Positions 1,494 through 29,208 of a DNA stretch of 64,000 nucleotides are shown one piece after another; the stretch's first letter is position 1, and every line of letters starts with the position of its first letter. This stretch comes from Maridesulfovibrio sp. (GTDB lineage Bacteria > Desulfobacterota > Desulfovibrionia > Desulfovibrionales > Desulfovibrionaceae), in contig NZ_OY780933.1 of assembly GCF_963676065.1 (NCBI RefSeq), positions 2,332,122 to 2,396,121 of the forward strand. The letters are read 5' to 3'. Below the pieces are notes generated by a model, which saw only the letters and a program-made list of their open reading frames with translations, made no database searches and was not told the origin of the DNA. A program made the translations under genes and the position numbers.

Positions 1494-1509
1494 AACTCGA
1501 CTTTCGGAG
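1494..1509. repeat. IS left terminal inverted repeat
   Basis: aactcgactttcggag is the exact reverse complement of 2823-2838. Confidence 0.8.
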
Positions 1510-1633
1510 ATATTTTTACAGTTTAACCAACATTCAACATGTTGAAATAAGGGCTGTTTTTAATTGAAGGGTCCTTACTGCCTTGATATTCTGTTGTTCT
1601 CACGCACCAGGAATAAAAAGGAGAAGGACTCGG

Positions 1634-2782
1634 ATGCAACGTATCTCTACCAACCACGTCCTGCAAGCCTCTGAACAACAAATTCCAAGTCGAATTGACT
1701 CTTTTTTTCAGCATTTCGGGATTGGAACCCTTGCCCATAGCTGCGGAATCACGAAAACAAAGGGAGTATCCCAAACCATTCTGTTTTCCTGCATTTTTTC
1801 TTTTCCGTTTTTCAGCCTCAATCTTTACCGATGCTTTGCAACCCAGCAGAACAAGGATTTTGCTAAAGACGCAGCCTACGATTTCTTCCGTTCAAGCCGT
1901 TTCAGTTGGCGGCGTTTCTTGCTCCGTCTGGCAGCCAAAGTCTGCGCTGTATTTCAAGAACTGACCTCGGACGACCTAGAATTGGTGTTTATGATCGATG
2001 ACTCCATCGTGCATCGTCCCCGTGCAAAAAAAATCGAGTTGCTGGCCTGTGTTTTTGATTACTCGGAAAGCAAATTTCTTAAATGTTTCCGGTTGTTGAG
2101 CTTATGTTGGTCTGACGGCAACAGCCTTGCTCCCCTAGATTTTGTCCTGTTGTCTTCTCACAATGAGAAGAAGCGAATTCTAGGTGTCACCAAGCAGGTT
2201 GATAGCCGAACCTGCGGAGCCAAGCGTTGCCAAGAAGCTATACGCAAATCCACAACTTTAATCGGCCCTATGCTGCGTCGAGCTTTATTTGCCGGAATTC
2301 GGGCCAAATATTTGCTCATGGACCGTTGGTTCGACATGCCTTCAATCATCGCTGATACAAGCGAATTTTTGCCTGTTATCTGCATGGTTAAACGCACCTC
2401 CAAAATACTTTACAGGTTTGGAGAGGAACGTTTGACCGTTGATGGAATCTTCCGCACAATCAAACAGCATCTGGATTTGGAAAAAGGCTGTCAGGCCAGA
2501 TATTTCGATGCGCTTATCGCGCACACCACCATTGTTATGATGCGGTATCTCTTCCTCGCTTTGGAACAAAGGCGAAATGACGATCCACGCATTCCCGGTC
2601 TGCTTTTACACACCTGCTGCGAAGAAATGCGCGACTTGGATTACTTGGAGTCCCTTCAACTAATCCTGATTTTAGCTTCGGTAAATTTACTGAAAAACAA
2701 GCCTGTTGCAGAGAAGTTGAGCCAAGTTATGATGGCTGAAATCCTCAAGCAAGAATTTTATATTTACGGCTTAAACAGGTAG
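1634..2782 (+). CDS. IS4-family DDE transposase (likely internally deleted or degenerate)
   Basis: ATG at 1634 follows an AGGAG RBS; the ORF track starts at TTG 1583. Motifs MIDDSIVHRPRAKKIELL, LLMDRWF, and the C-terminal LDLEKGCQARYFDALIAHTTIVMMRYLF are typical of IS4-like transposases. Confidence 0.7.
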   Translation: MQRISTNHVLQASEQQIPSRIDSFFQHFGIGTLAHSCGITKTKGVSQTILFSCIFSFPFFSLNLYRCFATQQNKDFAKDAAYDFFRSSRFSWRRFLLRLAAKVCAVFQELTSDDLELVFMIDDSIVHRPRAKKIELLACVFDYSESKFLKCFRLLSLCWSDGNSLAPLDFVLLSSHNEKKRILGVTKQVDSRTCGAKRCQEAIRKSTTLIGPMLRRALFAGIRAKYLLMDRWFDMPSIIADTSEFLPVICMVKRTSKILYRFGEERLTVDGIFRTIKQHLDLEKGCQARYFDALIAHTTIVMMRYLFLALEQRRNDDPRIPGLLLHTCCEEMRDLDYLESLQLILILASVNLLKNKPVAEKLSQVMMAEILKQEFYIYGLNR

Positions 2783-2822
2783 AAATGTCAAAGATCAAAG
2801 GGAGTTATAGAATAATCTACAA

Positions 2823-2838
2823 CTCCGAAAGTCGAGTT
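2823..2838. repeat. IS right terminal inverted repeat
   Basis: ctccgaaagtcgagtt is the exact reverse complement of 1494-1509. Confidence 0.8.
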
Positions 2839-2987: not shown

Positions 2988-5453
2988 ATGGCAGAACAAG
3001 GTAGTGAACTCATAGAAAAATATGGAGCAGATTTGCTGCTTTTTACCGACAGCAGGATATTGAATGGTATTATCTGGAATTATCCCGCTTATTCGGATGA
3101 AGAGTGGGCGTTAATTTTAAAGTCCGTTTCAACAGCTGCGCGTACACGGGTTCTGGATCATCTGCCGCAGGCCAGAAGAGAGAGCGTCTCTGCTCTGAGT
3201 AAGTCAATACCTCTACCTTCACATGAGCAGTTGGCCGTTCTGATTGCCGATTTTTTAAGGTGCTATAGTTTTAGTTCTTGTCTTTTTCCCGATAAGGACT
3301 TTGATGATTTTGAGCATTTTGATAGTCCGCCGCTGAAGCCCAAATTCCTTTGGATTGAAGAATCGTACAGCTCGTTTACTGCCGACCCTGAAGACACCAT
3401 AGTTCGCTGGCTGATGATAACAAATGCCTGGCGTGAGCACGGGGGGATTGTTTTTGATTCACTCCTTGAAGCTGACATAGATATTTATACACGGGAAATA
3501 CTCATGAGAGCCATGCAGACCCCAAACAGTAAAAAGTTTGAGGTCCGGGATTTGCGTGAATCCCTGCTTGGTGAAGTTAGAAATACTCTTGAAGGAATGT
3601 CGGAACTGTTCCTTGGAATATGTAAAGGTGATAGGCCGGATAAGTTTATTGCGCTACTTGCGGATAAATTTAATCTGAAGCAGTCGGAGGTGCATCCGGG
3701 GCCAATCATGCATGAAAGCATAGTGGAAGGCCCGCAAAATACAGAGTCCGTTAATTCCATGCTCGGATTGATGGATAAAGCTTTGAATGATGGAATTCTT
3801 TCCGTTGATATTGATGTTCCTAAGATCACTTCTTCTTTTTTCCGCGATGGACTTACCCATGTGACTGACGGTTTTGAACCGGAAACACTTGAGCTTTGGG
3901 CTAAGGGGCGTATCAACCTTATTTTGCAGTATGTGGGTTGGTCTTTTGACATTGTGGAAACCGGATGCCGTTGTATTTTAGGCTCGTTTTCTCCTCATAT
4001 GACCAGAGTGGCGCTTCAGGCTCATGTTTTTGAGAAATTGCCCATGACCAGAGAAACAGGCCTGCTTCCACAAGAGGGAAACAATGAAAATAAGACTGAA
4101 TATTCCGCAATACAAGGAGATGATGGTTCCAAGTTCTTTGTGGATCAAGGCGATGATCCTGCCACCCTCTTCGGCTGGTTTGTTTTTAAATTATCTCTGG
4201 ACGAAGTGAAGTCAGGCAATCCACATGATTTTGATCAACTTTCCGTTGTTGCTGAATTGGCGTCGATGATCCCTCCTAAGCGTTGGGTTGGGATGGATTA
4301 CGTGCTTTCACAGCAGCAACGCATTGATGCTTTTCACTTAGGACTTGAATTCATAGTTCAGAGTAATGAAGAGGAAATAGGCATAAGTCTTTTGAATCTG
4401 GTCCAGAATCTTCAGCCTGATTTTGACGCACTCTCTGACAATTACACCCAATACAGGGGCATGTATCAGGAATTGGCCGGACTGAAATATTGGGACGCCT
4501 TACTTTTGGAGCGAATTGAATTTGCACAACTTCTTGGTCGGCTCAGGGCAGAAGAAATTGCATCTTTTGCTTCATCTTCATGGGGCTTTTTTGCAGCAAA
4601 TGTAGGAATGCCTGTGGGGGAACAGAGGGGGGCAGGCTGTTCATGGCAGCAGGCAAGTTCAAGTCTTCTTGCAGGTCTTGCAGACATGATTATCTCGAAT
4701 TATGATTTTAAGGTGTCAGCATGCGAGCAAAGAGACAAAAAGAGCCCTGCTGTTAGGCTTATTGATACTCTGGTCAAAAAATATGCGGATACTTTTGTCT
4801 ATGGTTCCGCTCCTGTGCATAAGAGCCTCTCCGAGAAGGTAGTTGCGGGATTGTACGTGATGGATGCGCTGGAGAGGGTCTCGGTGTTCAGCAGGCTTCA
4901 TGAGAATATAATCCTTCATGTCCTGCTGGAGCTTGAGCCGTATACAGATGATTTTGACCTGATCTGTTCTCTGCTTCCACATTTGAATCAGGAGAAGCGC
5001 GAGTCGCTTCAAACTGTTATTATTGATTCCGATTGTAAAATAGCTGTGACTTTAACCAGAGTTTTAAGTTTCGGTTTTGATCAGATGATTGAATTGTCGG
5101 ATTACCAGATTCGTGAACTGCTGAAATATGTTTCCAATGTTGATTTATGTTTGGCCCTTGCGGATGCTTCCGAGGAGTTGATAGAACTTTTTATGTCCAA
5201 CATGTCGGAAAGGGCAGGGGATATGATCAGGGAAGATATGGAAATGCAGGGTTGCAGCCTTAATCAGGAACAGGTGTTTAAGGCGAAGTATAATCTGGTA
5301 AAAGTTGTGCTGGAGTATGGTCTACTTTCATCGGAACAAGATTGCGGCCAGGATAGCAATGAGAGCATCGTGCAGCGGATTGTTGCTGTGGCCAGTGATT
5401 TTGATGATGACGACCTGTTCAGTGACCCGGACGACATCTTTAGCGAAAATTAG
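2988..5453 (+). CDS. Large soluble protein with FliG-C-like and MotA-cytoplasmic-loop-like modules; function unknown
   Basis: ATG at 2988 follows a GGGGA RBS; the ORF track starts at 2943. The C-terminal segment LALADASEELIELFMSNMSERAGDMIREDMEMQG resembles the FliG C-terminal domain. Internal GILSVDIDVPKITSSFFRDGLTHVTDGFEPE resembles the MotA TM2-TM3 loop. Acidic tail. No TM segments. Confidence 0.7.
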   Translation: MAEQGSELIEKYGADLLLFTDSRILNGIIWNYPAYSDEEWALILKSVSTAARTRVLDHLPQARRESVSALSKSIPLPSHEQLAVLIADFLRCYSFSSCLFPDKDFDDFEHFDSPPLKPKFLWIEESYSSFTADPEDTIVRWLMITNAWREHGGIVFDSLLEADIDIYTREILMRAMQTPNSKKFEVRDLRESLLGEVRNTLEGMSELFLGICKGDRPDKFIALLADKFNLKQSEVHPGPIMHESIVEGPQNTESVNSMLGLMDKALNDGILSVDIDVPKITSSFFRDGLTHVTDGFEPETLELWAKGRINLILQYVGWSFDIVETGCRCILGSFSPHMTRVALQAHVFEKLPMTRETGLLPQEGNNENKTEYSAIQGDDGSKFFVDQGDDPATLFGWFVFKLSLDEVKSGNPHDFDQLSVVAELASMIPPKRWVGMDYVLSQQQRIDAFHLGLEFIVQSNEEEIGISLLNLVQNLQPDFDALSDNYTQYRGMYQELAGLKYWDALLLERIEFAQLLGRLRAEEIASFASSSWGFFAANVGMPVGEQRGAGCSWQQASSSLLAGLADMIISNYDFKVSACEQRDKKSPAVRLIDTLVKKYADTFVYGSAPVHKSLSEKVVAGLYVMDALERVSVFSRLHENIILHVLLELEPYTDDFDLICSLLPHLNQEKRESLQTVIIDSDCKIAVTLTRVLSFGFDQMIELSDYQIRELLKYVSNVDLCLALADASEELIELFMSNMSERAGDMIREDMEMQGCSLNQEQVFKAKYNLVKVVLEYGLLSSEQDCGQDSNESIVQRIVAVASDFDDDDLFSDPDDIFSEN

Positions 5454-5498
5454 GACCAGTTGAGCTTTGTATTTATGTTTTGATTCTGGAGGTTGATC

Positions 5499-6110
5499 GT
5501 GAGCCTTGTGAGAATATTGTGTTTTGTGCTGTTAATGTTGCTTGCAGCGTGTGCCTCCCATCCGCTTGATATGTCGGATGATGAATGGGGTGCGCTCACT
5601 CTGCAACAAAAGCTTGAAGCACGTGAAAAGCAGGCTGAACTTGATTTAAAGGCCAGAGAACTGGCTGTAGAGCAGGAAAAACGAAGAAATGAGGAACGAA
5701 GAATTGCCAGAGTCAAAGAGCGTGAAGCAGATATTGCCAATGGTCTGATCGTTGAGTTCTATCCTGCTAAGGCTGCCTGTATTGGCGGCGATAAGTGCCG
5801 TCCTAGGGATGTCAATGAAATCATAATCCCTTTGCATGGGTTGTGTGCCATAGACGTTGTCCATATTTATGCCGATGACCGTGTGGGAAATCGGCATGAT
5901 GGGGTGCTTGAAGTTATGGCTGACCATTACCGTTTGGAGCGTGTCGACATCTCCAAGCGTAGCAAATGGTATCAGGTCTTTGCCGGGCGCAGGGCCCGTA
6001 ATGTGGTTTTGAAGACGGTAACTGATGATGAAGTGCAGGTTTACTGGGTCAAGGTGTTTGGTTCGCGGATTGATTCGGGCCAGATTGAATACCGGGTTAT
6101 TGAAAGGTAG
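5499..6110 (+). CDS. Lipoprotein with a charged coiled-coil segment and a C-terminal beta-rich domain; unknown function
   Basis: GTG at 5499 lies 6 nt after GGAGG. Lipobox LLAAC. E/R/K-rich stretch. 45 nt downstream of the previous gene. Confidence 0.6.
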   Translation: MSLVRILCFVLLMLLAACASHPLDMSDDEWGALTLQQKLEAREKQAELDLKARELAVEQEKRRNEERRIARVKEREADIANGLIVEFYPAKAACIGGDKCRPRDVNEIIIPLHGLCAIDVVHIYADDRVGNRHDGVLEVMADHYRLERVDISKRSKWYQVFAGRRARNVVLKTVTDDEVQVYWVKVFGSRIDSGQIEYRVIER

Positions 6111-6125
6111 AGATAGGTCGTTTTA

Positions 6126-7937
6126 ATGCTGAGTTATTTTTATATCCTTCACCGCCATCTCAAAAACATAACTCCGGTGGTTGTGGGTGTTTATACTTTT
6201 ATCCTTTTTCTGGGAGCGTTTTTCACTTTTCCTTTTTCTACTTCGCCATCAGATCTCATGGGGGTCTTTTTTTTAGGGGGGGGCGGAGCTTTAATCTTGG
6301 AAACATTGTCTTTGTTGGGCCTGATCCCTGCTTACGGCTGTGCCCCGTTTAGCGAGGGACTTATAAAGTTCGGGCTGGGGGCATTTTTTGTATGGGTTGC
6401 CTTTGATATGAGTCTTGCCGGTCAGGGAACCGCTACCATTGCTGTTATCTTTTATGTATTGACTGCTGGATTCTACGCACTCACTTTCCGTAAGCACAAA
6501 TGGTATAGTGTTGTTGCAACCGGTCCGCTCGGTTCATTTGATACTTTCATGGAAAAAATGGAATCTTCCGGGGCAGAACAATTCAAATATCTCGATAATA
6601 CGAAAGAAGGCCGCCACTATACTCTCAATAAATTTTTGGTAAATTTTAATGCTATTGAAACAGATCGCTGTACTTATACTGTGAGCAATCTGATGCCGCA
6701 GAATCTGAAATGTTTGAAAAAAATATTCGGGGAGATGGAGGGTATCACATCAATATGGGAGGGCCTTGATTTTCATAGCAACTGTCGTGTTACTAACGGC
6801 AATATCCAGCGCATATTTGATGATTCAACAGAACTTGACGAAGCTTATATCTATGGCAACGGGTTATTTCTTTCTTTACGTTCGAAAAATATTCTTTCCG
6901 GGATTCATGGTTCCCTTGAAAGGGAAGTTGGGCCGGGAAGGGGGCAGCTTCACCGGATTACCGTCAGTTTTGAACCCTATCCCCAAAAGAATGATTTTTT
7001 CCTGAACCTCAATACCCATAATCCCCAGGAGCTAGTGAAACTGCGAATAGTTAATCCTGCTGATGGTGATGAGAAAATTCAATGTCCTGAATTACTGGGG
7101 GAAAATATATCCTTTTCCGTTGTCCATGAAGGCCCGCTTGATACTTTTGGAAGTCGGTTGATTTTTAAGAAACATGGCGAAGATGGACGGGAGTATTTCC
7201 TGATCTCATACTCTTATCTTGAAGGAATTATTATCAAACCGATAAGCGGAGCCGAAGCAGCAAGTCTTCCAACTGTTTCGGTGGAAAAATACCTTGATTA
7301 CTGGAGCTGCTTTACTGCTTTGGATGCCGCTTCGAATGTTGAAGAAGAGGAGATTTTTGATCCCAATATTTTTATGGCACCGCGAGGAAACTTTATTCTT
7401 TTGGGCTATGATGAAAGTATTGATGAGCACCGTCATGCTGGAATTTTCCCGTCAGAAGGAAAAACCATTACCGAAGCTTTGAGGATAACAAAAAAATCTG
7501 ATCCAGATAATTTAGTTTATCAAGTGTATGATGAAAATGGGGACTGTCTTTTTGCTACGAACCAGAAAGCTCCTGTGAAGAGAGAGCATTTTGTGGCAAA
7601 GATGATGCGCTATAGTGGGCCCTTTTGGCATGAGTTTTTTGATGACGGCTATTGGAAGCTGCTTGTTGGAAGCTATACGTTGGCCTGGGTGGCATTAATT
7701 CCTTTGTTTGTCCCTTTTATGCAGGAGAACGGCCTGATCTTTCTGGCCTATGGTTTAATCCCTATAGCACTGGCCGGTATCCACCTGAGACTTTGGGGTG
7801 ATCTTTCACTCTATGCCACAAGCAGAGGTGGAAAGCTTAGCTGCGTTCTAGTGGGCATTTTTGGAACAATTGCCTTTACGTGTCTCTTGGCAATTTTGGT
7901 TGCTTTTCGGGTTAAATTACTCTGGTGTTTGGGCTAG
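6126..7937 (+). CDS. Polytopic membrane protein (N- and C-terminal TM bundles, about 380-aa central soluble domain); unknown function
   Basis: 603-aa ORF 15 nt after the lipoprotein gene. Hydrophobic helices at both ends. No motif I recognise. Confidence 0.6.
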   Translation: MLSYFYILHRHLKNITPVVVGVYTFILFLGAFFTFPFSTSPSDLMGVFFLGGGGALILETLSLLGLIPAYGCAPFSEGLIKFGLGAFFVWVAFDMSLAGQGTATIAVIFYVLTAGFYALTFRKHKWYSVVATGPLGSFDTFMEKMESSGAEQFKYLDNTKEGRHYTLNKFLVNFNAIETDRCTYTVSNLMPQNLKCLKKIFGEMEGITSIWEGLDFHSNCRVTNGNIQRIFDDSTELDEAYIYGNGLFLSLRSKNILSGIHGSLEREVGPGRGQLHRITVSFEPYPQKNDFFLNLNTHNPQELVKLRIVNPADGDEKIQCPELLGENISFSVVHEGPLDTFGSRLIFKKHGEDGREYFLISYSYLEGIIIKPISGAEAASLPTVSVEKYLDYWSCFTALDAASNVEEEEIFDPNIFMAPRGNFILLGYDESIDEHRHAGIFPSEGKTITEALRITKKSDPDNLVYQVYDENGDCLFATNQKAPVKREHFVAKMMRYSGPFWHEFFDDGYWKLLVGSYTLAWVALIPLFVPFMQENGLIFLAYGLIPIALAGIHLRLWGDLSLYATSRGGKLSCVLVGIFGTIAFTCLLAILVAFRVKLLWCLG

Positions 7938-8491
7938 CAGTACTTTTTATAATTAAGAATTTTTGACGCTAAACGATCAGCCAACATTTTGTTGGAATCT
8001 TTCAATTGTTCATGGATCAATTTTGCTTCTTCACGGTATTTGGCGCATTTTTCCTTTGTCCAGTAGGATGGCGGCGGCTGAAGATTTACAACCCGGTCTG
8101 CAAGTTTGACCAGTTGTGCTTCATGGGGGAGTTTCTTCAAGCGTTCGAGGCTGTCGGACATTTGGGCTTTCTTGTCAGGGAGGGATTTGTCTTTGGTTAA
8201 TCCTGTTACCCCATCTGCAACCCCCTTTCCGAACAGCTCTTCTAATTTTTCATAGGTTGTCTCTGTATCTTCAATGGTGTCGTGAAGCAAAGCGCAACAG
8301 ACCGCCAGATCGCAATCCATGTCTGACGGGCTGACAGCCAATGCAGACATTACTTCCATGGCAACAGCACCGACATGCAAGATGTATGGTTTTTCTGTTC
8401 CGGGTACACATTGCCCAAGGTGCTTTTGCGCTGCAAAGTTCCAAGCTTTCATATATGTGTCTTGCGAGATGAAATTCAAATTGTTCTCCAT
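7934..8491 (-). CDS. HD-domain (p)ppGpp hydrolase-like protein (small alarmone hydrolase type)
   Basis: AAQKHLGQ, LLHDTIEDT and KLADRVVNL are typical of the RelA/SpoT hydrolase domain. 185 aa, single domain. Confidence 0.75.
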   Translation of the reverse strand: MENNLNFISQDTYMKAWNFAAQKHLGQCVPGTEKPYILHVGAVAMEVMSALAVSPSDMDCDLAVCCALLHDTIEDTETTYEKLEELFGKGVADGVTGLTKDKSLPDKKAQMSDSLERLKKLPHEAQLVKLADRVVNLQPPPSYWTKEKCAKYREEAKLIHEQLKDSNKMLADRLASKILNYKKYC

Positions 8492-8764
8492 TTGTACGGC
8501 AATGTTACATTATATAAATAATATGTTGTCTTGCCAGGTATTTGCCGAGTTCTTCAGCTAAAAAATATGATCCGATCCATAAAAAACATTTGAAGATTGC
8601 CCAAGGAGGGGTGACTATTGGCACAAAGCCTATAAGAAAAAAGCACCCCCTATTCCAAATATTCTGTCATAAAAGTCTTTTCCTATACCTATACTGTCGG
8701 GGTAATATATTGAAATAGTATTTAAAGGCTTTGATAGCTACCCAAGCCTTTTAGTTTCAAATAA

Positions 8765-9427
8765 TTAAATTTCCTTTAAAAAATATTCACCAGTCCACTT
8801 ATAGCCTTCTTCCATAAAGTCTTTAAAATGTTTTGGGTCAGTGATATTATTTTCAATAAGCCACCTGACAAAGCGACCTTTAATGTGCTTTCCCTGGTGA
8901 CCTGCCGGCATCTTCTTACCTGCTTTTTTTAGAACAAATTCAACCTCAATTCCATGATCATATTTTACAGCTTTCTTGTGTGCTTGCGGTAATAAATCAA
9001 TAACAAATTTGTTTTTCAATTGCTCTGAATTGGAATTCACCCATAACTTGGCAGCTTTTAATTTATCAATTTTTAAACGATAATTAGGAATCAAATCAGA
9101 CGGGCTTACAAGGCCAAATAGACCTGAAACAATTAACACTTTTTTATCGAAGTCAGATTTATTTTTCAAAGTTTGATAATCAATTGCGTCATAAACTACG
9201 CCTGTATACCGTTCAATAGCAGGCATTGTTTTTGAAATTAAGACTTCCTTATTTACAGTAATAGCTTTCTCGAGAGCCGTTTTCTTAAGTCCATATAGCT
9301 TTATGGGATCAGCTTCTTTAATCGCTTCAATTAAGTCGGCAGCAATACCTGATACAGACTTTAGAGGTTTATTGTGTCCGCCGTCAGCTTTACCCTCAGA
9401 TGGTGGAATTAAGATAATAGTTTTCAT
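8765..9427 (-). CDS. yaaA: YaaA/DUF328 family protein (peroxide-stress protein family)
   Basis: PPSEGK start, ERYTGVVYDAIDY, SGLFGLVSPSDLIPNYRLKI, HIKGRFVRWLIEN. The gene is markedly AT-rich compared with its neighbours. Confidence 0.7.
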   Translation of the reverse strand: MKTIILIPPSEGKADGGHNKPLKSVSGIAADLIEAIKEADPIKLYGLKKTALEKAITVNKEVLISKTMPAIERYTGVVYDAIDYQTLKNKSDFDKKVLIVSGLFGLVSPSDLIPNYRLKIDKLKAAKLWVNSNSEQLKNKFVIDLLPQAHKKAVKYDHGIEVEFVLKKAGKKMPAGHQGKHIKGRFVRWLIENNITDPKHFKDFMEEGYKWTGEYFLKEI

Positions 9428-9743
9428 AAAAATTCTTACGAGTTTAATTCGTTAAAAACGTTGGAGTTTAGCAAGTAAAATAAACGAATCAGTTAATTGC
9501 AATTTATTTGTACAAAATAAAAGTTGGGGTCCTCTTCTATATTATGGGATGAAATAGAAAGATATTGTTTTTTGAGAAGGGCCTTAATTTACATATTCTT
9601 TTCCAGTGAAAAAAATCCTGGAAATCTCCCATTCTCCGCAAATCCCGGAAAATACCCAAAACGTGTTCTCTCATGGATAAAATTAATCTTATTATGTCAA
9701 ACCCTGGCGAGCTGTCTTTTCGCATTGCATTCAAGAGGCAGTT

Positions 9744-9767
9744 GGTTCAATTTCCCCAGCTCCACCA
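9744..9767 (+). other. Remnant resembling a tmRNA (ssrA)/tRNA 3' end (T-loop to CCA); possible att site
   Basis: GGTTCAATTTCCCCAGCTCCACCA closely resembles the E. coli ssrA 3' end GGTTCAACTCCCGCCAGCTCCACCA (from memory). No matching 5' half upstream. A terminator follows. Confidence 0.45.
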
Positions 9768-9785
9768 TATAAATTTCTCATAATT

Positions 9786-9820
9786 AAGCCTAGCTATCAA
9801 AACTGGTAGTTAGGCTTTTT
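9786..9820 (+). terminator. Rho-independent terminator
   Basis: Stem aagccta/taggctt with further inner pairing, followed by a T-run. Confidence 0.6.
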
Positions 9821-9925
9821 CGTGCTGGTTAACCTGCGGGTAAACAAGGTCAACTCGGGGCTACCTCAAGCAAAGATGTACAGGCTCGAACGGTCAAATT
9901 TCTAACTGTTGATTATTCCTAAGTC

Positions 9926-9990
9926 GTAACGAAATTTTGTTGTTAATACACTAAATTTCGTTTCTTCAACGAAATAGCGTTGTTATGTTT
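9926..9990. promoter_or_regulatory. Candidate enhancer (UAS) repeats for the sigma-54 activator
   Basis: 18-nt direct repeats aacgaaatNNNgttgtta at 9928 and 9968 (15/18 identical, 40-bp period). An inverted copy aaatttcgtt lies at 9954-9963. The repeats end about 60-120 bp upstream of the -24 element. Confidence 0.5.
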
Positions 9991-10047
9991 TAGTGTCAAA
10001 AAATAAATAGTTCATTATTTCGGTGGCTTATTTGGTTTTATCTCGTA

Positions 10048-10061: not shown

Positions 10062-10184
10062 CTTATAGCTGAATAAAATAACTTAAGCCAAAAGCCTTTG
10101 GGGTATTTTTGAGCGACAGCAATAATCGGCTTGCGTTGGTCAAAGTGCCTACCTTAGGTGAAACAGCCATCGAGGAATGCAGAA

Positions 10185-12206
10185 ATGGGAAACGAAAAGC
10201 ATACACATGAACATGATCATAGTCACGGTCACCATCATCATAGCCACGGGCACCATCATCATAACCACAACGATTTCACTGACTACAAGAATGCAGTCAA
10301 AGAATATCGTCAGTCATTTGCCAGTAAAAAGGATGTAATGGAGCAGGCCCCTGATCCGGCTGTACGGGACATGGTTAAATATATGGATGAGCAGGGTGTA
10401 GAAAACTGTTTTGATCGTTTCGACAAGCAGAAACCGCACTGCACCTTTGGGTTGGCAGGGGTCTGTTGTAAAATATGCTCCCTTGGTCCCTGTAAGATCA
10501 CTGAACGTTCTCCCCGTGGAACATGCGGTGCTGATGCTGATCTTATTGTTGCCCGAAATCTGGTCAGGTCGGCTGCAGGTGGCGTTGCCGCACATGGAGC
10601 TCGTGCGCGGGAGATCATTCTCACTCTGAAAAAAGCAGCAGAAGGCGATGTTAATCTGCCTATTGAAGGTGTGAATAAGGTCAAAGCTGTTGCCGACATG
10701 TTCAATCTTGATGTTAAGAACAGCACTATCGAAGAGCTGGCTGGACAAATCGCAGACATTCTTTTGGAAGATTTAAGTAGAGCAGTCCCCGGAACTCATA
10801 AGACGCTTGATGCTGTAGCTACGTATGAAAGAAAATTAGTTTGGGAGAATCTGGATTTACTTCCTGTTGGTTCATACCATGAAGTTTTCGAAGCCCTGCA
10901 TCAGACCACCGTCGGCACTCAGGGAGATTGGCGTAAAGCCATGGATCAATTCATGCGCCTTGGTGTCGCATTTTCAATGAACAGCGTTGTTGGCGGTTCT
11001 ATTGCAAGCGACTGTCTTTACGGTGTGCCTCAGCGGACCACCGTCAAAGCCAATTTGGGGGCATTGAAAACAGACACAGTAAATATTGCAGTCCATGGAC
11101 ACGCCCCTCAGATGGCAATGGAAGTGATAAAAACAGCCCGCAGTGAGAAGTTCGTTGAAATGGCGAAAGAAGCGGGAGCAACTGGTATTCAGTTTTACGG
11201 TATTTGTTGTTCCGGATTGTCATCTCTGTACAGGCTTGGAGGAGTAATTCCCCTTTCCAACGCCAACGGATCTGAACTTGTTCTCGCAACAGGTGCTCTT
11301 GATCTTTGGATGGCTGATATTCAGGAAATATTTCCGGGTATTATGGATGTTGCAAACTGCTACAAGACTGTAGTCGTGACAACTAACGAGTCAAACCGTC
11401 TGCCCGGAGCAGAGCATATCGGTTATAAACGTGACCTTTCTGATCTGGACAAACTTCCAGAAATGGCAGAGCGCATTGTTACCCGCGCAATTGAAAGCTT
11501 TAAGAATCGTCGCGATGTAAAGAGACATATTCCCGAGCATGAGGTTGAGGCTGAAGTTGGATTTAACCTTGAAACACTCAAGGCCCGCTATGGTTCACTT
11601 TCAACAATAGCCTCGGCATTGATTGAAGGAAAGATCAAGGGAATCATCAACCTCGCAGGATGCACAAACACCAGAATCGTATTTGAAAAAGCGATCGTGG
11701 ATATCGTCGATATCCTGTTGAAAAACAACGTACTGGTCTTTACCAACGGATGCGCTTCCTTTCCTATGGCCAAGTTGGGATATTGTTCCAGCAAAGGGCA
11801 GGAAAAATGCGGCGACAAGCTGCTTAGATTCCTAGGTCCTAAAATGCCTCCTGTCTGGCATTTTGGTGAATGCATAGATAATGCACACTCTGTATCTGTG
11901 TTTAGAGAAATAGCAAAGTATACCGGACGTCATTTGAAAGATCTGCCTTTTGCCGAAGTGACCCCGGAATGGTCCAATGAAAAAGGTGTGGGAGCAGCTC
12001 TCGCTTATCGCATGCTCGGTTTCAATTCCTATCACTGCGTTCATGCCCCAGTTCAAGGTTCTAAAAAAGTTGAAGAATTCCTTTATAACGGCACAAAGGA
12101 ATTGCTCGGCTCGTGCATGAACGTTGATCCCGATCCTGCAAAAGTAGCCGCAATGATCCTCAGGGATTTTGACGAAGCCAGATCTAATGTGTGCTGGCGG
12201 TCATAG
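10185..12206 (+). CDS. cooS: CooS-family (Ni-CODH/prismane family) protein, deviant: poly-His N-terminus and one cluster Cys replaced by Glu
   Basis: ATG at 10185 follows a GAGGA RBS. Motifs CTFGLAGVCCKICSLGPCKI, GTCGADA, IAVHGH, GICCSG, LAGCTN, TNGCAS, HFGECIDN. DIQEIFP occurs where canonical enzymes have D-x-Q-C. Confidence 0.85.
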   Translation: MGNEKHTHEHDHSHGHHHHSHGHHHHNHNDFTDYKNAVKEYRQSFASKKDVMEQAPDPAVRDMVKYMDEQGVENCFDRFDKQKPHCTFGLAGVCCKICSLGPCKITERSPRGTCGADADLIVARNLVRSAAGGVAAHGARAREIILTLKKAAEGDVNLPIEGVNKVKAVADMFNLDVKNSTIEELAGQIADILLEDLSRAVPGTHKTLDAVATYERKLVWENLDLLPVGSYHEVFEALHQTTVGTQGDWRKAMDQFMRLGVAFSMNSVVGGSIASDCLYGVPQRTTVKANLGALKTDTVNIAVHGHAPQMAMEVIKTARSEKFVEMAKEAGATGIQFYGICCSGLSSLYRLGGVIPLSNANGSELVLATGALDLWMADIQEIFPGIMDVANCYKTVVVTTNESNRLPGAEHIGYKRDLSDLDKLPEMAERIVTRAIESFKNRRDVKRHIPEHEVEAEVGFNLETLKARYGSLSTIASALIEGKIKGIINLAGCTNTRIVFEKAIVDIVDILLKNNVLVFTNGCASFPMAKLGYCSSKGQEKCGDKLLRFLGPKMPPVWHFGECIDNAHSVSVFREIAKYTGRHLKDLPFAEVTPEWSNEKGVGAALAYRMLGFNSYHCVHAPVQGSKKVEEFLYNGTKELLGSCMNVDPDPAKVAAMILRDFDEARSNVCWRS

Positions 12207-12349: not shown

Positions 12350-13111
12350 ATGCATTTCAGATCAACTTCGGTACAGTTCAGATTATCCAGACCATGCCGC
12401 GAAGAATTTTCAAAAGAATTATATCGTCCGGGAGTTGTTTCTCTGACGCGTATAATCTGGGGCTCTCTTGGTGGTGGGCTACTGCTGTGGTTCATCGCTA
12501 TTCTTTCCGGAAAAACAGGAATCAATGTCCTTTATCCTCCTCTTGCAGCAACATGTTTCATAAACACTACCTGTGTCTTTTTGCGTGTTGCACGTCCAAA
12601 GTCAGTAATAGTCGGACATACGGTAGCTTCAATCTGCGGATTGGCTGGAGTCTGGATAGGAAATTATATCGCCCCGGGGCCCGAATTCATAATCCCTGTG
12701 AAGCTTGGACTTTCCGTCATGCTCGCGGCTGTCTTCATGCAGATATTTGATGCCGACCACCCACCTGCAGCCGCCACTGCAGCCATACCGGCGATACTCC
12801 CACTCCCCATGCCTTGGTACTTGCTCCCACTGCACATGGCATGGGGTGCCACAATAACCGTTATCTTTGCGTTTATCTGGAATAGAATCTGGTTTGAATT
12901 TCCTGTCCGGGATAGTGATAACTGCGTCAAAAACGCAGGGCTATACATGGAAAAGGTTCAAATTGCGGGCTTAGCAATATGTATAGTCAGTTGTATGATT
13001 ATGTGCTTTCAATCCATATCCCCTACAATCAGAATGTCCGGTCTCTGGGGTATGGCTGTAGGGAATATAATTCTCGGGACACATCATTTTTATAATATTA
13101 CCTCAAGTTAA
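12350..13111 (+). CDS. HPP-family integral membrane protein
   Basis: Signature FDADHPPAAATAAIP plus PKSVIVGHTVASICGL. Multiple TM helices. Confidence 0.75.
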   Translation: MHFRSTSVQFRLSRPCREEFSKELYRPGVVSLTRIIWGSLGGGLLLWFIAILSGKTGINVLYPPLAATCFINTTCVFLRVARPKSVIVGHTVASICGLAGVWIGNYIAPGPEFIIPVKLGLSVMLAAVFMQIFDADHPPAAATAAIPAILPLPMPWYLLPLHMAWGATITVIFAFIWNRIWFEFPVRDSDNCVKNAGLYMEKVQIAGLAICIVSCMIMCFQSISPTIRMSGLWGMAVGNIILGTHHFYNITSS

Positions 13112-13232: not shown

Positions 13233-14900
13233 ATGTTACTGCCATTTCTATTGTCAGTCGGAATAATTATGTTTAGAACTTCAGGCATGGCTGACGAAAA
13301 AACTTTTCACTTCAGAAATGAGAAAATTCAATCTCTTTTGCTGGAGATGGGGCAACAAAGGTCTACCGGATCTCTTTTCACTCTTATAGTAAATGGGCTG
13401 GCCCAATTCCCGAATATTTCCCTCGCTCGAATATGGCTAATCAAAAATGGCGATATCTGTCCCTCATGCCCTTTACAAGATGAGTGTCTGAATCAAAAAG
13501 AATGTCTGCACTTGGTTGCCAGCGCCGGACAGTCCGTTTTTGATTCTGCTGTAGATTGGGCACGTATAGACGGTGATCATCGACGTTTTCCTTTGGGAGC
13601 CAGAAAGGTAGGGCATATCGCTGCTACAGGAACTCCCGTCATAGTGAAATCAATATCCAAAGACTCCAAGTGGATACTCCATCAAGATTGGGCAAAGCGG
13701 GAAGGAATAAATGGATTTGCCGGTCAACCGATGGTTTACCATGGTGCAACTATGGGGGTTCTGGCTGTTTTTACCAAGAGTGAAATAGCCCAACCCGCTC
13801 TTGAGATACTGAATATTATCTCAAACCATGCTGCTGCTGCACTTGTTAACGCACGGGCTTTTGAGAAAATAGAAGAACTGAGACGACGTCTTGAGTCCGA
13901 AAACAGCTATTTGCGTGAAGAGTTGATGAGTTCAACCTCTTTCGGCGGATTCATTGGTCAAAGTGCTCCACTACAAAGAATTATCCAGCAGATAGACCTT
14001 GTAGCGTCCACAGACGCAAGCGTATTGATACTGGGCGAATCTGGAACAGGAAAAGAACTGGTCGCCCGAGAACTTCACCAGCGAAGCGCACGCCGAAGCA
14101 GTCCCATGATCAAGGTGAATTGTGCTTCCATTCCCAAAGATTTATTTTCGAGTGAATTTTTCGGCCATGTTAAAGGTGCATTCTCCGGTGCTGTCGCTAA
14201 CAGGGTTGGTAAGTTCGGTGCCGCGCACAAGGGGACTCTGTTTCTTGATGAAATAGGGGAAATCCCCCTTGAGCAGCAGGCTCATCTACTTAGGATTTTG
14301 CAGGAAGGAGAGTACGAACGTGTCGGAGAGGAAAAGACTCGTAAGGTTGATGTAAGAATTATTGCCGCAACCAACAAGGATCTTAAAACCGAGATTGAAA
14401 ACGGTAGATTCAGGGAAGATCTCTATTTTCGGCTTAATGTCTTTCCTATTGATGTCCCGCCGCTACGAGAGCGAAAGGAAGATATCGTGCTCTTGGCAAA
14501 TCATTTCTTAAAGCAATTTCTTTTAGAAATTAAACGGCCTGTATTTCAATTTACAGATGCGCAGCTACAAAAGCTGGAACAGTATTCATGGCCCGGTAAT
14601 GTTAGAGAGCTTCAAAATATAGTTGAACGTTTTGCTATCACCTCCAGCTCTGATCCAAGAAATCTAGATTTTTTTAACAGTCTGAAGTCAGAGCTGCCGT
14701 CCGTAGAACAATTCCAAACCAGCGATTCCAGTGAACAGATATTAACTGAGCATGAACTGGAGCAGATACAGAAAAAAAACATAGAAAGAGCCCTTAAATT
14801 GTGCCGGGGTAAGATTTATGGAACTGATGGCGCCGCGAAATTGTTGGGTTTAAAGCCCACAACTCTTGCCAGTCGTATAAAGAAGATGGATATTAGTTAG
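13233..14900 (+). CDS. Sigma-54-dependent transcriptional activator (GAF + AAA+ + Fis-type HTH; NorR-like architecture)
   Basis: GESGTGKE Walker A, GAFSGA (GAFTGA variant), ELQN, C-terminal AAKLLGLKPTTLASRIKK. The N-terminal GAF-like region carries a Cys-rich insert. The start is uncertain (alternative ATGs at 13269 and 13287). Confidence 0.85.
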   Translation: MLLPFLLSVGIIMFRTSGMADEKTFHFRNEKIQSLLLEMGQQRSTGSLFTLIVNGLAQFPNISLARIWLIKNGDICPSCPLQDECLNQKECLHLVASAGQSVFDSAVDWARIDGDHRRFPLGARKVGHIAATGTPVIVKSISKDSKWILHQDWAKREGINGFAGQPMVYHGATMGVLAVFTKSEIAQPALEILNIISNHAAAALVNARAFEKIEELRRRLESENSYLREELMSSTSFGGFIGQSAPLQRIIQQIDLVASTDASVLILGESGTGKELVARELHQRSARRSSPMIKVNCASIPKDLFSSEFFGHVKGAFSGAVANRVGKFGAAHKGTLFLDEIGEIPLEQQAHLLRILQEGEYERVGEEKTRKVDVRIIAATNKDLKTEIENGRFREDLYFRLNVFPIDVPPLRERKEDIVLLANHFLKQFLLEIKRPVFQFTDAQLQKLEQYSWPGNVRELQNIVERFAITSSSDPRNLDFFNSLKSELPSVEQFQTSDSSEQILTEHELEQIQKKNIERALKLCRGKIYGTDGAAKLLGLKPTTLASRIKKMDIS

Positions 14901-24288: not shown

Positions 24289-25080
24289 TTAAGGTTCCGT
24301 ATGATATTTATCTTGGAACATTTTTCTCAATTTTTTCAAGGCCTGAGAATGTAACTGTGAAACCCTGCCTTCTGTAATCTCCATAACTTCGGAGGTCTCT
24401 TTCATATTGAGTTCCTCTCCGTAGTACAGAGATAATACCAGTTTTTCTCTCGGCGTCAAATTATCAATCAGATCAGCTACCTTGTCCACTGTTTCTTGAA
24501 AAACAGCATTTTGGAAAGGTTCATCGTCTAGCTGTGAATCTTTATTGCTGGGAATATTATCATTAAAGGCATCAAGATTGACGCAGAGTTGGTTTTGCAG
24601 GGCCTCAAGTCCCTGCTGCACTTCTTTGGCAGAGAATCCGGTCGCTTCTGCAATTTGAGCGCTGGTCGGTTTTTCACCTGTTTCGTGCTCAAGTTCATGG
24701 ATGCTGTTTTCAATGGTCTTTACTTTATGCCGCAGTCCGCGTGAAAACCAGTCCATGCGCCTTAGCTCGTCAAGCATGGCACCTTTGATGCGGTTTTCCG
24801 CATAGGTTTCAAACTTGATTTTCAGCTCAGGCCGAAATTTTCCAAGTGATTCTACTAGTCCCAGACTTCCGGCACTAATCAGCTCTCCTAGCTCCACATT
24901 CTGCGGGAGCTTGGCTTTCATGCGGAGTGCAATAATACGGATTTTGGGTGAATAATGCCGTACTATCGCCTCTTGATCTGCGGGCGGAAAATCTTCCCAA
25001 TCAGTAGCCCCGGACTCTAAATTAAGCCACGGACTGTTCTTGGAAGAGAAGTTTTTTCCAGAAGAACTTGATATTACCAT
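24289..25080 (-). CDS. fliA: Flagellar sigma factor FliA (sigma-28)
   Basis: Sigma-70 region 2-4 motifs. EVMEITEGRVSQLHSQALKKLR. Confidence 0.9.
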   Translation of the reverse strand: MVISSSSGKNFSSKNSPWLNLESGATDWEDFPPADQEAIVRHYSPKIRIIALRMKAKLPQNVELGELISAGSLGLVESLGKFRPELKIKFETYAENRIKGAMLDELRRMDWFSRGLRHKVKTIENSIHELEHETGEKPTSAQIAEATGFSAKEVQQGLEALQNQLCVNLDAFNDNIPSNKDSQLDDEPFQNAVFQETVDKVADLIDNLTPREKLVLSLYYGEELNMKETSEVMEITEGRVSQLHSQALKKLRKMFQDKYHTEP

Positions 25081-25858
25081 CTAGCTCGGATGTCGCTTTC
25101 CATTTAGTTATTTTTTTAGCAGCTTCAGCAATTTGAACACAAGCAGGACTTGAGGGAGCAAAACTGCATAGCGGGGTTTGTTTAATAACCGCTTGGCGCA
25201 TGTTCTGATCGCGAGGGATAACCCCCACAAGATCCAGTGAAACTCCGCTCAGGAAATGGTCACAGGCCATGTAGAGCTTTTTGAATACTTCTTTGGCACT
25301 TTTTACGTCCGGTGCCATGTTTACCATAACCTTGAATTTGTCAACCCCGTGATTAAGCTTCATTACTTTGATCAGGGCGTAGGCATCGGTAAGGGATGTC
25401 GGCTCCGGGGTCAAAACCAGGAGGCGTTCCTGAACTGCAAGATTGAAGTACAGTACATTATCGTTAATGCCCGCTCCGGTATCGACAATAAGGTAATCAA
25501 TTTCTTCTTCAAGGTGATCCATGGCTTCCAGCAGGTCCAGTTTTTGGCCAGTAGAAAGGGAGACCATGTCGCTTACTCCGGAAGAAGCCGGGAGAATATG
25601 GAATCCGTAATCTGTCTTGTAGAGGACTTCCCTGATTCCGGTCCCTTCGTGGAAGAGGTGAAACAGGTTGTACTTGGGTGCAATACCAAGCAGAACGTCG
25701 ACATTTGCAAGGCCGAGGTCGGCATCCAGCAGCAAGACTTTCTTGCCCATGCGGCTTAAGTTGTAGGCTAGGTTTACGGAAATATTTGTCTTGCCTACCC
25801 CCCCCTTACCGGAGGTTACTGAAAATACCATGGGAAGATTGGAACTCATTTGTATCAC
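25022..25858 (-). CDS. flhG: MinD/ParA-type ATPase FlhG (FleN)
   Basis: Deviant Walker A SGKGGVGKT. LLLDADLGLANVD. Confidence 0.9.
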   Translation of the reverse strand: MIQMSSNLPMVFSVTSGKGGVGKTNISVNLAYNLSRMGKKVLLLDADLGLANVDVLLGIAPKYNLFHLFHEGTGIREVLYKTDYGFHILPASSGVSDMVSLSTGQKLDLLEAMDHLEEEIDYLIVDTGAGINDNVLYFNLAVQERLLVLTPEPTSLTDAYALIKVMKLNHGVDKFKVMVNMAPDVKSAKEVFKKLYMACDHFLSGVSLDLVGVIPRDQNMRQAVIKQTPLCSFAPSSPACVQIAEAAKKITKWKATSELDGNIKFFWKKLLFQEQSVA

Positions 25859-25951
25859 CCTATTCTTATTTATCTATACTGTTTACGTTGCCATCTGTTT
25901 TTATGCAACGAATATTGTGCTCTATTTGCCTAATTTTCCGGAAAAAGGCTT

Positions 25952-27040: not shown

Positions 27041-27053
27041 GTTACCAACCTTT

Positions 27054-29141: not shown

Positions 29142-29208
29142 GATTTTGACACCCCTTTCAGGTCTATTTTACTGTGGCATTTTAACCCCGGAAGAGGTGT
29201 ACAGGCCT

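What the first reader, a model, noticed from the sequence alone, without database searches (positions are those of the whole stretch)
2988..7937. Tight three-gene operon spanning cytoplasm, membrane and periplasm, with no assignable function
Three genes have gaps of only 45 and 15 nt and no intervening terminators, so they look co-transcribed. The first encodes an 821-aa soluble protein made of FliG/MotA-like modules. The second encodes a lipoprotein (lipobox LLAAC, charged coiled coil, beta-rich C-domain). The third encodes a 603-aa protein with TM bundles at both ends around a soluble domain of about 380 aa. The predicted localisations suggest an envelope-spanning complex. The operon sits between an IS element and an AT-rich patch, about 13 kb from the flagellar export operon, and lacks canonical fliF/fliM/motAB partners.
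Basis: partly seen in the sequence, partly recalled or inferred. Interest (0 to 1): 0.75.

Follow-up and report, generated by a model that had tools for sequence, protein, structure and literature searches.

The report
Soluble MotA–FliG chimera in rare gene cluster
Three tightly packed genes of a marine sulfate reducer are real and found in almost no other organism; the first encodes a soluble protein that joins the cytoplasmic head of the flagellar stator (MotA) to the rotor protein FliG, so it probably acts at or imitates the motor's torque interface, but its link to the two neighbouring envelope genes is loose and no function is proven.

Summary
Three same-strand genes (2988-5453, 5499-6110, 6126-7937) have gaps of 45 and 15 nt and no intergenic terminator.

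Gene 1 (821 aa, soluble) has two recognisable modules. Residues 254-349 are a complete copy of the MotA cytoplasmic, torque-generating domain without its membrane helices (hhalign 98.4%, E 1e-14). Residues about 650-780 are a FliG C-terminal domain that keeps the torque-helix charges R281, D288 and D289. It has no EHPQ motif and scores far below the FliG cut-off, so it is not a canonical FliG. About 20 of the 150 best FliG_C hits carry the same two modules. I found no paper describing this class.

Gene 2 is a lipoprotein with a highly charged helical stretch. Gene 3 has 4+3 predicted TM helices, and its roughly 385-aa central domain is probably cytoplasmic, not periplasmic. Neither matches any family.

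All three families are extremely rare. They co-occur in three related loci or genomes, all probably Maridesulfovibrio relatives. The cluster is plastic, though: gene 1 is deleted in one relative, gene 2 is a pseudogene in another, and gene 3 lies 17 kb away and inverted in a third. Distant gene-1 relatives stand alone. The window copy is a cut-down remnant bounded by an IS4 element.

Function is unproven. My best guess is a protein that binds the rotor-stator interface.

The parts
2988..5453 (+). g1: 821-aa soluble, all-helical protein. It is a chimera of a TM-less MotA cytoplasmic domain and FliG-like helical domains.
   Evidence: ORF. No TM segment. AF2 mean pLDDT 72, all helices. The best Foldseek matches are FliG middle+C and full-length FliG. 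Only about 6 full-length relatives exist among 1.84 billion representative proteins.
3747..4034 (+). g1 residues 254-349: a complete MotA cytoplasmic (torque-generating interface) domain without TM3-TM4.
   Evidence: hhalign of the g1 family against the soluble-module profile: 98.4%, E 1e-14, 96 columns. phmmer against MotA structures 8ucs_C and 6ysf_E, residues 74-128: E 6e-5. NCBIfam MotA/MotP hits fall at the same place in P0001, P0007 and P0009.
4950..5330 (+). g1 residues about 655-780: FliG ARM-C plus the C-terminal six-helix domain with the torque helix (NMSERAGDMIREDM).
   Evidence: Pfam FliG_C, E 2e-19, residues 691-775. PDB FliG hits down to E 2e-14 over residues 653-783. Foldseek: TM-score normalised to the target (TMt) 0.81-0.83 to 1qc7 and 8ucs_H. 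The equivalents of R281, D288 and D289 are kept.
5499..6110 (+). g2: 203-aa lipoprotein. It has the lipobox LLAAC, a highly charged helical stretch of about 60 residues, and a C-terminal domain of about 115 residues.
   Evidence: Sequence. No family match. Orthologues: L008 (91% identity), L009 (74.5%) and a pseudogene remnant in L001. dN/dS 0.16.
6126..7937 (+). g3: 603-aa membrane protein with 4 TM helices, a central domain of about 385 aa (probably cytoplasmic) and 3 TM helices.
   Evidence: Hydropathy, AF2 secondary structure and loop charges. No Pfam, NCBIfam or PDB match. Only 3 relatives were found, at 50-90% identity. dN/dS 0.23.
7934..8491 (-). Convergent HD_4 (SpoT-like small hydrolase) gene overlapping the g3 stop by 4 nt. 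It is a conserved neighbour and probably not part of the unit.
   Evidence: Pfam HD_4, E 1.6e-13. The same 4-nt convergent overlap occurs in L001 and L008. It is absent in L007.
1494..2838 (+). IS4-family insertion sequence 150 bp upstream of g1. It splits the 3' remnant of a PsbP-like lipoprotein gene (1336-1492 and 2837-2952).
   Evidence: NCBIfam transpos_IS4_4, E 2e-104. Perfect 16-bp terminal inverted repeats. blastn against L008 shows the flanks are contiguous there.

Best explanation
This is a lineage-restricted accessory cluster, seen only in loci that are probably all from Maridesulfovibrio relatives. Its key gene, g1, encodes a soluble protein that carries both halves of the flagellar torque interface.

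**Shown**
- g1 contains one TM-less copy of the MotA cytoplasmic head: the TM2-TM3 loop plus the post-TM4 helix.
- g1 also contains a FliG C-terminal torque-helix domain.
- It lacks the features that would make it a rotor subunit.

**Inferred**
- g1 most likely docks at the rotor-stator interface of the cell's own polar flagellar motor. Its FliG_C part would bind stator MotA heads, and its MotA-like part would bind rotor FliG, so it would act as a decoy, brake or clutch. The other possibility is that the two complementary modules bind each other, within one molecule or head-to-tail between molecules.
- g2 and g3 are co-transcribed with g1 in this genome. g3 could hold g1 at the membrane through its large cytoplasmic domain, and g2 could report on or tether to the envelope.
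- This partnership is facultative, because each gene persists in some relative without adjacency to the others.

The window copy is a trimmed remnant of a larger envelope-gene operon. An IS4 element cuts it upstream and a rearrangement cuts it downstream.
For: **Anatomy of g1**
- FliG_C by Pfam and by PDB sequence search.
- Foldseek: FliG middle+C and full-length FliG, E about 5e-4; FliG_C alone gives TMt 0.81-0.83; PomA at probability 0.87.
- MotA cytoplasmic domain.
- In small soluble relatives the same module aligns to MotA 82-142 plus 220-248 of 8ucs_C. That entry is the stator-FliG complex.

**Interface residues**
- The FliG R281 equivalent is R in 5 of 6 family members.
- D288/D289 are E/D-D in all 6.
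- The MotA E98 equivalent is acidic in 5 of 6.

**Recurrent fusion**
- About 20 of the 150 best FliG_C representatives carry 1-4 soluble MotA-head modules.
- Three others are real 4-TM MotA proteins fused to FliG_C.
- This is a Rosetta-stone pattern, and it fits the known MotA-FliG contact.

**Host and selection**
- The host is flagellated: flhB, flhA, flhF, flhG and fliA lie in the window.
- g2 and g3 are under purifying selection.

**Co-occurrence**
- g1, g2 and g3 are present together in the window and in the L007/L009 genome. L001 has g1 and g3 plus a g2 pseudogene.
- Otherwise the families are nearly absent from 5.8-15 billion proteins.
Against: - No experiment or complex prediction supports binding to the motor or to g3.
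- In the window's clade the MotA R90 equivalent is L or I, so half of the classical charge pair is lost.
- No motA, motB, fliG, fliM or PilZ gene lies nearby.
- Small soluble relatives sit alone in unrelated contexts, and distant g1 relatives sit beside nif and Fe-S genes.
- g1 is deleted in L008 while g2 and g3 stay intact.
- g2 is a pseudogene in L001, and g3 is 17 kb away and inverted in the L007/L009 genome. A strict three-protein complex is therefore unlikely.
- All four g3-bearing loci are related, so the shared distribution may reflect common descent only.
- The g3 model is unusable (pLDDT 44).
Confidence: 0.35

Rival explanations
1. The genes are unrelated neighbours. g1 works alone, whatever its target. 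g2-g3 form a separate membrane module of unknown role, tied more closely to the conserved minus-strand block (HD_4, a 237-aa TM protein and a ~100-aa protein). The adjacency is left over from shared ancestry and rearrangement.
For: - g1 is deleted while g2-g3 are kept in L008.
- In the L007/L009 genome g3 is 17.4 kb away on the other strand, and g1-g2 sit behind a TM-protein and Sel1 operon.
- L002-L004 carry g1 relatives with no g2 or g3 within 10 kb.
- g3 always sits beside the 237-aa and ~100-aa genes in L001, L007 and L008.
Against: - Three very rare families share the same narrow distribution.
- g1-g2 adjacency is ancestral: it is seen in the window and L009, as a remnant in L001, and as a fused remnant in L008.
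- The 45-nt and 15-nt gaps in the window imply co-transcription.
Confidence: 0.3
2. This is a new non-flagellar envelope machine. g1 would be the cytoplasmic ring or scaffold, built from recycled MotA and FliG interface modules. It would be attached to g3, and in fuller loci to the 291-304-aa TM protein. The periplasmic parts would be g2, a Sel1-repeat protein and large lipoproteins.
For: - In three of the four related loci (L001, L009, L008) the g1 position lies inside a longer operon of envelope genes, though the genes differ between loci.
  - L001 and L009: a TM protein and a secreted Sel1 protein lie just upstream.
  - L008: ABC ATPase, FtsX-like permease, FGE-sulfatase domain protein, peptidoglycan-binding lipoprotein and PsbP-like lipoprotein.
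- g1 lacks the FliM-binding EHPQ motif and the FliG_N and FliG_M domains, so it is not built for the C ring.
Against: - The envelope partners differ from locus to locus.
- No ion-conducting MotA/MotB-type or ExbB/ExbD-type membrane unit is present.
- Distant g1 relatives and the small soluble fusions lack any envelope partners.
- No structure or interaction data exist.
Confidence: 0.2
3. This is a decaying remnant. The window locus is a cut-down island on its way to loss, and the genes no longer do anything useful here.
For: - An IS4 element lies 150 bp upstream, inside a gene remnant.
- The downstream 237-aa gene is truncated at about 8500-8726.
- A g1 deletion and a g2 pseudogene occur in relatives.
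Against: - All three ORFs are intact, and g1 and g2 have good ribosome-binding sites; the g3 site is weak.
- dN/dS is 0.16-0.23.
- g1 stays full-length across 25-53% identity.
Confidence: 0.1

Closest known systems
FliG, the flagellar rotor/switch protein (TIGR00207; PDB 3hjl, 4fhr, 8umd)
   Same: The C-terminal ARM-C and six-helix domain is homologous (Pfam E 2e-19; Foldseek TMt 0.8). The torque-helix motif NMSxRA...ED keeps the R281, D288 and D289 equivalents.
   Different: g1 is 821 aa against about 335. It has no Pfam FliG_N or FliG_M, no EHPQ motif, and scores 54 bits against a 226.7-bit cut-off. It is not in a fliF-fliG-fliH operon, and it carries a MotA-head module that no FliG has.
MotA/PomA stator subunit, cytoplasmic torque-generating interface (PDB 6ysf, 8ucs, 8brd; described in PMC12505986)
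   Same: g1 residues 254-349 align with the TM2-TM3 loop helices and the post-TM4 helix, including the GxLSxE and DGxEPE motifs.
   Different: g1 has no transmembrane helices, no ion path and no MotB partner. The R90 equivalent is L in the window protein.
Soluble MotA-head + FliG_C fusion proteins, which I could not find characterised (for example P0093 from a Spirochaetota MAG, P0051, P0028, P0111; the NCBIfam LIC10244 family shares the module)
   Same: They have the same two modules in one soluble polypeptide, and g1 matches their module profile at E 1e-14.
   Different: Most are 230-360 aa with better conserved modules. g1 is about 800 aa with roughly 450 further helical residues, and in its clade it sits beside envelope genes.
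Motor brakes and clutches: YcgR/MotI (PilZ) and EpsE
   Same: If the hypothesis is right, g1 would be a soluble protein that binds at the MotA-FliG interface to modulate rotation. This rests on my own knowledge of those systems.
   Different: There is no sequence or fold relationship, and g1 has no PilZ or glycosyltransferase domain. The resemblance is functional analogy only and was not tested.

Membership tests
FliG (flagellar motor switch protein) | Whole-protein match to the equivalog model TIGR00207 above its cut-off | tested here: not met
   54.1 bits against a cut-off of 226.7. Only model positions 208-317 are matched.
FliG (flagellar motor switch protein) | FliG_N (FliF-binding) and FliG_M domains, with the EHPQR motif that binds FliM | tested here: not met
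   No Pfam FliG_N or FliG_M hit at E <= 1 in any of the 6 family members; only FliG_C (6/6) and MgtE_N (5/6) were found. No [EDQ][HYF]P[QERN] motif occurs in the FliG-like half of any member; the one match in the family, in P0008 at residue 237, lies upstream of the MotA-like module.
FliG (flagellar motor switch protein) | C-terminal domain with charged torque-helix residues (E. coli K264, R281, D288, D289, R297) | tested here: inconclusive
   The domain is present. The R281, D288 and D289 equivalents are kept. By reading the alignments, the K264 and R297 equivalents are not.
FliG (flagellar motor switch protein) | Encoded with fliF, fliH and fliM in a flagellar operon | tested here: not met
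   The neighbours are an IS4 element, a lipoprotein, a 7-TM protein and HD_4.
MotA/PomA stator A subunit | Four TM helices forming the ion-conducting pentamer around MotB | tested here: not met
   g1 has no hydrophobic segment and no motB-like gene lies nearby.
MotA/PomA stator A subunit | Cytoplasmic torque-generating interface with the charged pair R90/E98 | tested here: inconclusive
   The domain is homologous. E98 is D in the window protein, but R90 is L. Both charges are kept in P0007 and P0009.
Soluble MotA-head + FliG_C fusion class (defined here) | At least one TM-less MotA cytoplasmic module and at least one FliG_C domain in a protein with no TM helix | tested here: met
   The module lies at 256-347 (E 4e-12 with the A6 profile). 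FliG_C lies at 691-775. No TM segment was found.
Known anti-phage defence systems (including Zorya, which uses MotAB-like ZorAB) | A match to any PADLOC model | tested here: not met
   No hit for g1 or g2. g3 gave only a noise hit, E 0.036.

The most novel reading that the evidence does not exclude
Soluble proteins that join the stator head (the MotA cytoplasmic domain) to the rotor torque domain (FliG_C) may form a widespread, undescribed class of flagellar motor regulators or self-assembling interface mimics. g1 would be a giant member of this class. In a small, probably Maridesulfovibrio, clade it would be tied to a membrane and envelope module (g3, g2, and in fuller loci a TM protein and a Sel1 protein) that links motor control to the state of the envelope.
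Probability: 0.25. Interest if true: 0.8.

Novelty: new variant of a known kind. Interest (0 to 1): 0.55.

Why it matters
The MotA-FliG contact is where flagellar torque is made. A natural soluble protein that carries both sides of that contact would be a ready-made probe or regulator of the interface.

The recurrence of such fusions points to a layer of motor control, or a reuse of motor parts, that I could not find described. The fusions include real MotA-FliG_C membrane proteins.

For this locus in particular, the result narrows an 'unknown operon' to one testable protein, g1. It also shows that the proposed three-protein envelope complex is at best optional.

Tried and rejected
**Searches that found nothing**
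- Pfam, NCBIfam, PADLOC and PDB sequence searches for g2 and g3 gave nothing significant.
- Scans of GTDB species genomes with the g3 and g1 profiles gave no relatives. One call failed for lack of conserved columns.
- Metagenome scans found nothing for g3, and only ordinary FliG for g1.
- Five literature searches for FliG-like, MotA-like soluble, FliG paralogue and LIC10244 found no description of the fusion class. A follow-up read of one paper gave only a transcript listing.

**Searches that were uninformative**
- A third word-index search with the g1 family profile returned only the two known members, so it was wasted.
- The AF2 model of g3 has pLDDT 44. Its Foldseek matches are generic ferredoxin/ACT-like folds at E >= 6e-3, which I do not interpret.

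**Ideas rejected**
- The 174-aa protein of L001 is not a g2 homologue. The real g2 remnant in L001 is a frameshifted pseudogene at 12549-12906.
- I first read 'LHEN' at g1 residues 637-640 as a degenerate EHPQ motif. The PDB alignment places that stretch just before ARM-C, not in FliG_M, so I dropped the idea.
- A defence-system reading (Zorya-like) has no PADLOC support and no ZorAB-like membrane unit.
- A magnetosome link, suggested by a MamC Pfam hit beside the L002 homologue, has no counterpart in the window and was not pursued.

Full report
**1. Observation**

The window carries three same-strand ORFs:
- g1: 2988-5453, 821 aa, ATG behind GGGGA.
- g2: 5499-6110, 203 aa, GTG behind GGAGG.
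- g3: 6126-7937, 603 aa.

The gaps are 45 and 15 nt. No terminator-like site falls in either gap. NCBI names for the identical proteins place the window in a Maridesulfovibrio sp. genome of 4.23 Mb.

**2. Gene 1**

g1 has no hydrophobic segment.

*FliG-like part.*
- Pfam finds only FliG_C, at residues 691-775, E 2e-19.
- A family profile hits FliG crystal and cryo-EM chains over residues 653-783.
- An AlphaFold2 model built from six family members is all-helical, with mean pLDDT 72.
- Its best PDB matches are FliG middle+C and full-length FliG (E about 5e-4). The FliG_C domain alone fits at TMt 0.81-0.83, and PomA appears at probability 0.87.

*MotA-like part.*
- Weak but consistent hits place residues 248-302 on MotA residues 74-128 (NCBIfam; PDB 8ucs_C and 6ysf_E, E 6e-5).
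- Small soluble proteins found in the exhaustive search make the nature of this module clear. Their module aligns to MotA 82-142 (the loop between TM2 and TM3, which is the torque-generating interface of PMC12505986) and to MotA 220-248 (the helix after TM4). A short linker replaces TM3-TM4.
- A profile of ten such modules matches the g1 family over residues 255-350 at 98.4% probability, E 1e-14. Each of the six g1-family members has exactly one copy.

*Conclusion on anatomy.* g1 joins a TM-less stator head to a rotor torque domain. About 450 further helical residues give no match beyond an unlocated MgtE_N hit in 5 of 6 members.

*Interface residues.*
- The FliG R281 equivalent is R in 5 of 6 members.
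- D288/D289 are E/D-D in all 6.
- The MotA E98 equivalent is acidic in 5 of 6.
- The MotA R90 equivalent is K or R in the three distant members, but L or I in the window's clade.

*Why g1 is not a FliG.*
- It scores 54 bits against the 226.7-bit cut-off.
- It has no FliG_N or FliG_M domain and no EHPQ motif.
- It is not in a flagellar operon.

**3. Genes 2 and 3**

*g2.*
- The lipobox LLAAC is conserved in L008 and L009.
- Residues 29-88 hold 13 K/R and 14 D/E. A C-terminal domain of about 115 residues follows.
- It matches no family.

*g3.*
- It has four N-terminal and three C-terminal hydrophobic helices.
- K/R residues cluster at the N-terminus and just after TM4, and the short loops predicted to be periplasmic have none. 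The 385-aa central domain is therefore probably cytoplasmic (inference from the positive-inside rule).
- It matches no Pfam, NCBIfam or PDB sequence.
- Its AF2 model is unusable (pLDDT 44), and its Foldseek matches are generic.

Both genes are under purifying selection against L008: dN/dS is 0.16 for g2 and 0.23 for g3.

**4. Rarity and relatives**

- An exhaustive HMMER pass over 1.84 billion representative proteins found only five other g1-type proteins, at 26-52% identity. Everything else among the 150 best hits listed matched through the FliG_C or MotA-head modules alone, apart from one repetitive artefact.
- g3 has three relatives in 5.8 billion clusters.
- g2 was recovered only through neighbouring genes.
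- GTDB species genomes and JGI metagenomes added nothing.

**5. Synteny**

| Locus | Arrangement |
|---|---|
| Window | PsbP-like remnant split by IS4 / g1 / g2 / g3 / convergent HD_4 / remnant of a 237-aa gene |
| L008 (Logan contig; 89.6% nt identity over 5503-8726) | ABC ATPase, FtsX-like permease, FGE-sulfatase protein, peptidoglycan-binding lipoprotein, PsbP-like lipoprotein, then only the first ~30 codons of g1 fused to g2, then g3, HD_4, 237-aa and ~100-aa genes |
| L001 (Logan contig) | TM protein, secreted Sel1-repeat protein, g1, frameshifted g2 remnant, 1163-aa lipoprotein, 174-aa secreted protein, g3, HD_4, 237-aa, ~100-aa |
| L009 + L007 (second Maridesulfovibrio genome) | Three unknown secreted proteins, TM protein, Sel1 protein, g1, g2 (74.5% identical). 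g3 lies 17.4 kb away on the other strand, next to the 237-aa and ~100-aa genes and without HD_4 |
| L002-L004 (26-36% identity) | g1 relatives stand alone beside nif, Fe-S and MCP genes |

In L008 the loss of window positions 3074-5502 is a clean deletion.

The three families therefore share one narrow distribution, and the g1-g2 adjacency is ancestral. Each gene can still be lost or moved without the others.

**6. The wider class**

- Of the 150 best hits, about 20 representatives outside the g1 family carry one to four soluble MotA-head modules plus FliG_C. One 809-aa protein has four heads, an EYPQ-bearing middle domain and FliG_C.
- Three others are true four-TM MotA proteins with a C-terminal FliG_C.
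- NCBIfam MotA and MotP models hit these modules at E values between 1e-40 and 1e-11.
- Two members I looked up are single genes in unrelated contexts.
- Searches of the paper library found no description of such proteins.

**7. Mechanism**

*Shown.* The domain anatomy, the partial retention of interface residues, the recurrent fusion of two domains known to touch in the motor, a flagellated host (flhB/A/F/G and fliA at 24289-30270), the tight spacing and the purifying selection.

*Inferred.*
- g1 binds stator heads or rotor FliG, or binds itself through the two complementary modules, and so modulates or imitates the torque interface.
- g3 may anchor g1 through its cytoplasmic domain, and g2 may provide the envelope side.

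I give this reading about 0.35. The rivals are unrelated neighbours (0.3), a new non-flagellar envelope machine (0.2) and a decaying remnant (0.1).

**8. Verdict**

The finding is real. It is more interesting for g1 than for the operon as such. It is a new variant of known parts, not an established new system. Function remains untested.

Noticed in passing
Proteins P0010, P0012, P0018, P0028, P0034, P0037, P0051, P0066, P0073, P0075, P0078, P0082, P0093, P0111, P0117, P0122, P0123: This is a diverse set of soluble proteins that combine 1-4 TM-less MotA cytoplasmic-domain modules with 1-2 FliG_C domains. Several are FliG-sized, with the MotA head where FliG_N would be. I found no description of them in the searchable literature.
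   Followed up: partly
Proteins P0091, P0095, P0098: These are genuine four-TM MotA-like proteins with a FliG_C domain fused to the C-terminus. The stator and its rotor contact domain are in one polypeptide.
   Followed up: no
window 1494-2838: An IS4-family insertion sequence of 1345 bp with perfect 16-bp terminal inverted repeats. It sits inside the 3' remnant of a PsbP-like lipoprotein gene (1336-1492 and 2837-2952), 150 bp upstream of g1.
   Followed up: yes
window 7934-8491 (-); L001 18829-19374; L008 8661-9206: An HD_4 (SpoT-like small hydrolase) gene converges on g3 with a 4-nt overlap of the stop codons. The arrangement is conserved in three loci and lost in L007, so transcripts of the two genes would overlap as antisense.
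   Followed up: partly
window about 8500-8726 and 8500-10000: Similarity to L008 and L007 ends at 8726, inside the 3' remnant of the conserved 237-aa TM-protein gene. An AT-rich patch (33-37% GC) follows and carries a YaaA-like gene (8765-9427, minus strand). This looks like a second rearrangement boundary.
   Followed up: partly
L002 8425-8754 and neighbours: Beside the distant g1 relative P0007 lie a 109-aa protein with a Pfam MamC hit, FUR, FeoA, two P-type ATPases and an HMA_2 protein. This may be a metal or magnetosome-related neighbourhood.
   Followed up: no
L001 12946-16962: A 1163-aa lipoprotein and a 174-aa Cys-rich secreted protein, neither with any family match, are inserted between the g2 pseudogene and g3.
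   Followed up: no
L001 7908-9982; L009 7902-9957: A conserved gene pair lies just upstream of g1 in two loci: a 291-304-aa TM protein and a secreted Sel1-repeat protein of 387-409 aa (77% identical between loci). The pair is absent from the window. From my own knowledge, Sel1-repeat MotX helps recruit stators in Vibrio; that resemblance was not tested.
   Followed up: partly
window 24289-30270 (-): A flagellar export and placement cluster: flhB, flhA, flhF, flhG and fliA. The host is therefore polarly flagellated.
   Followed up: partly
window 10158-12206 (+) and 13233-14900 (+): An anaerobic CO dehydrogenase catalytic subunit (TIGR01702; 477.9 bits, just under the 478-bit cut-off) and a GAF-domain sigma-54 activator lie between the cluster and the flagellar genes.
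   Followed up: no
L009 10001-12454: NCBI annotates only the C-terminal 440 aa of the g1 orthologue (WP_320171862), although an intact 817-aa ORF is present and ENA calls it in full.
   Followed up: partly
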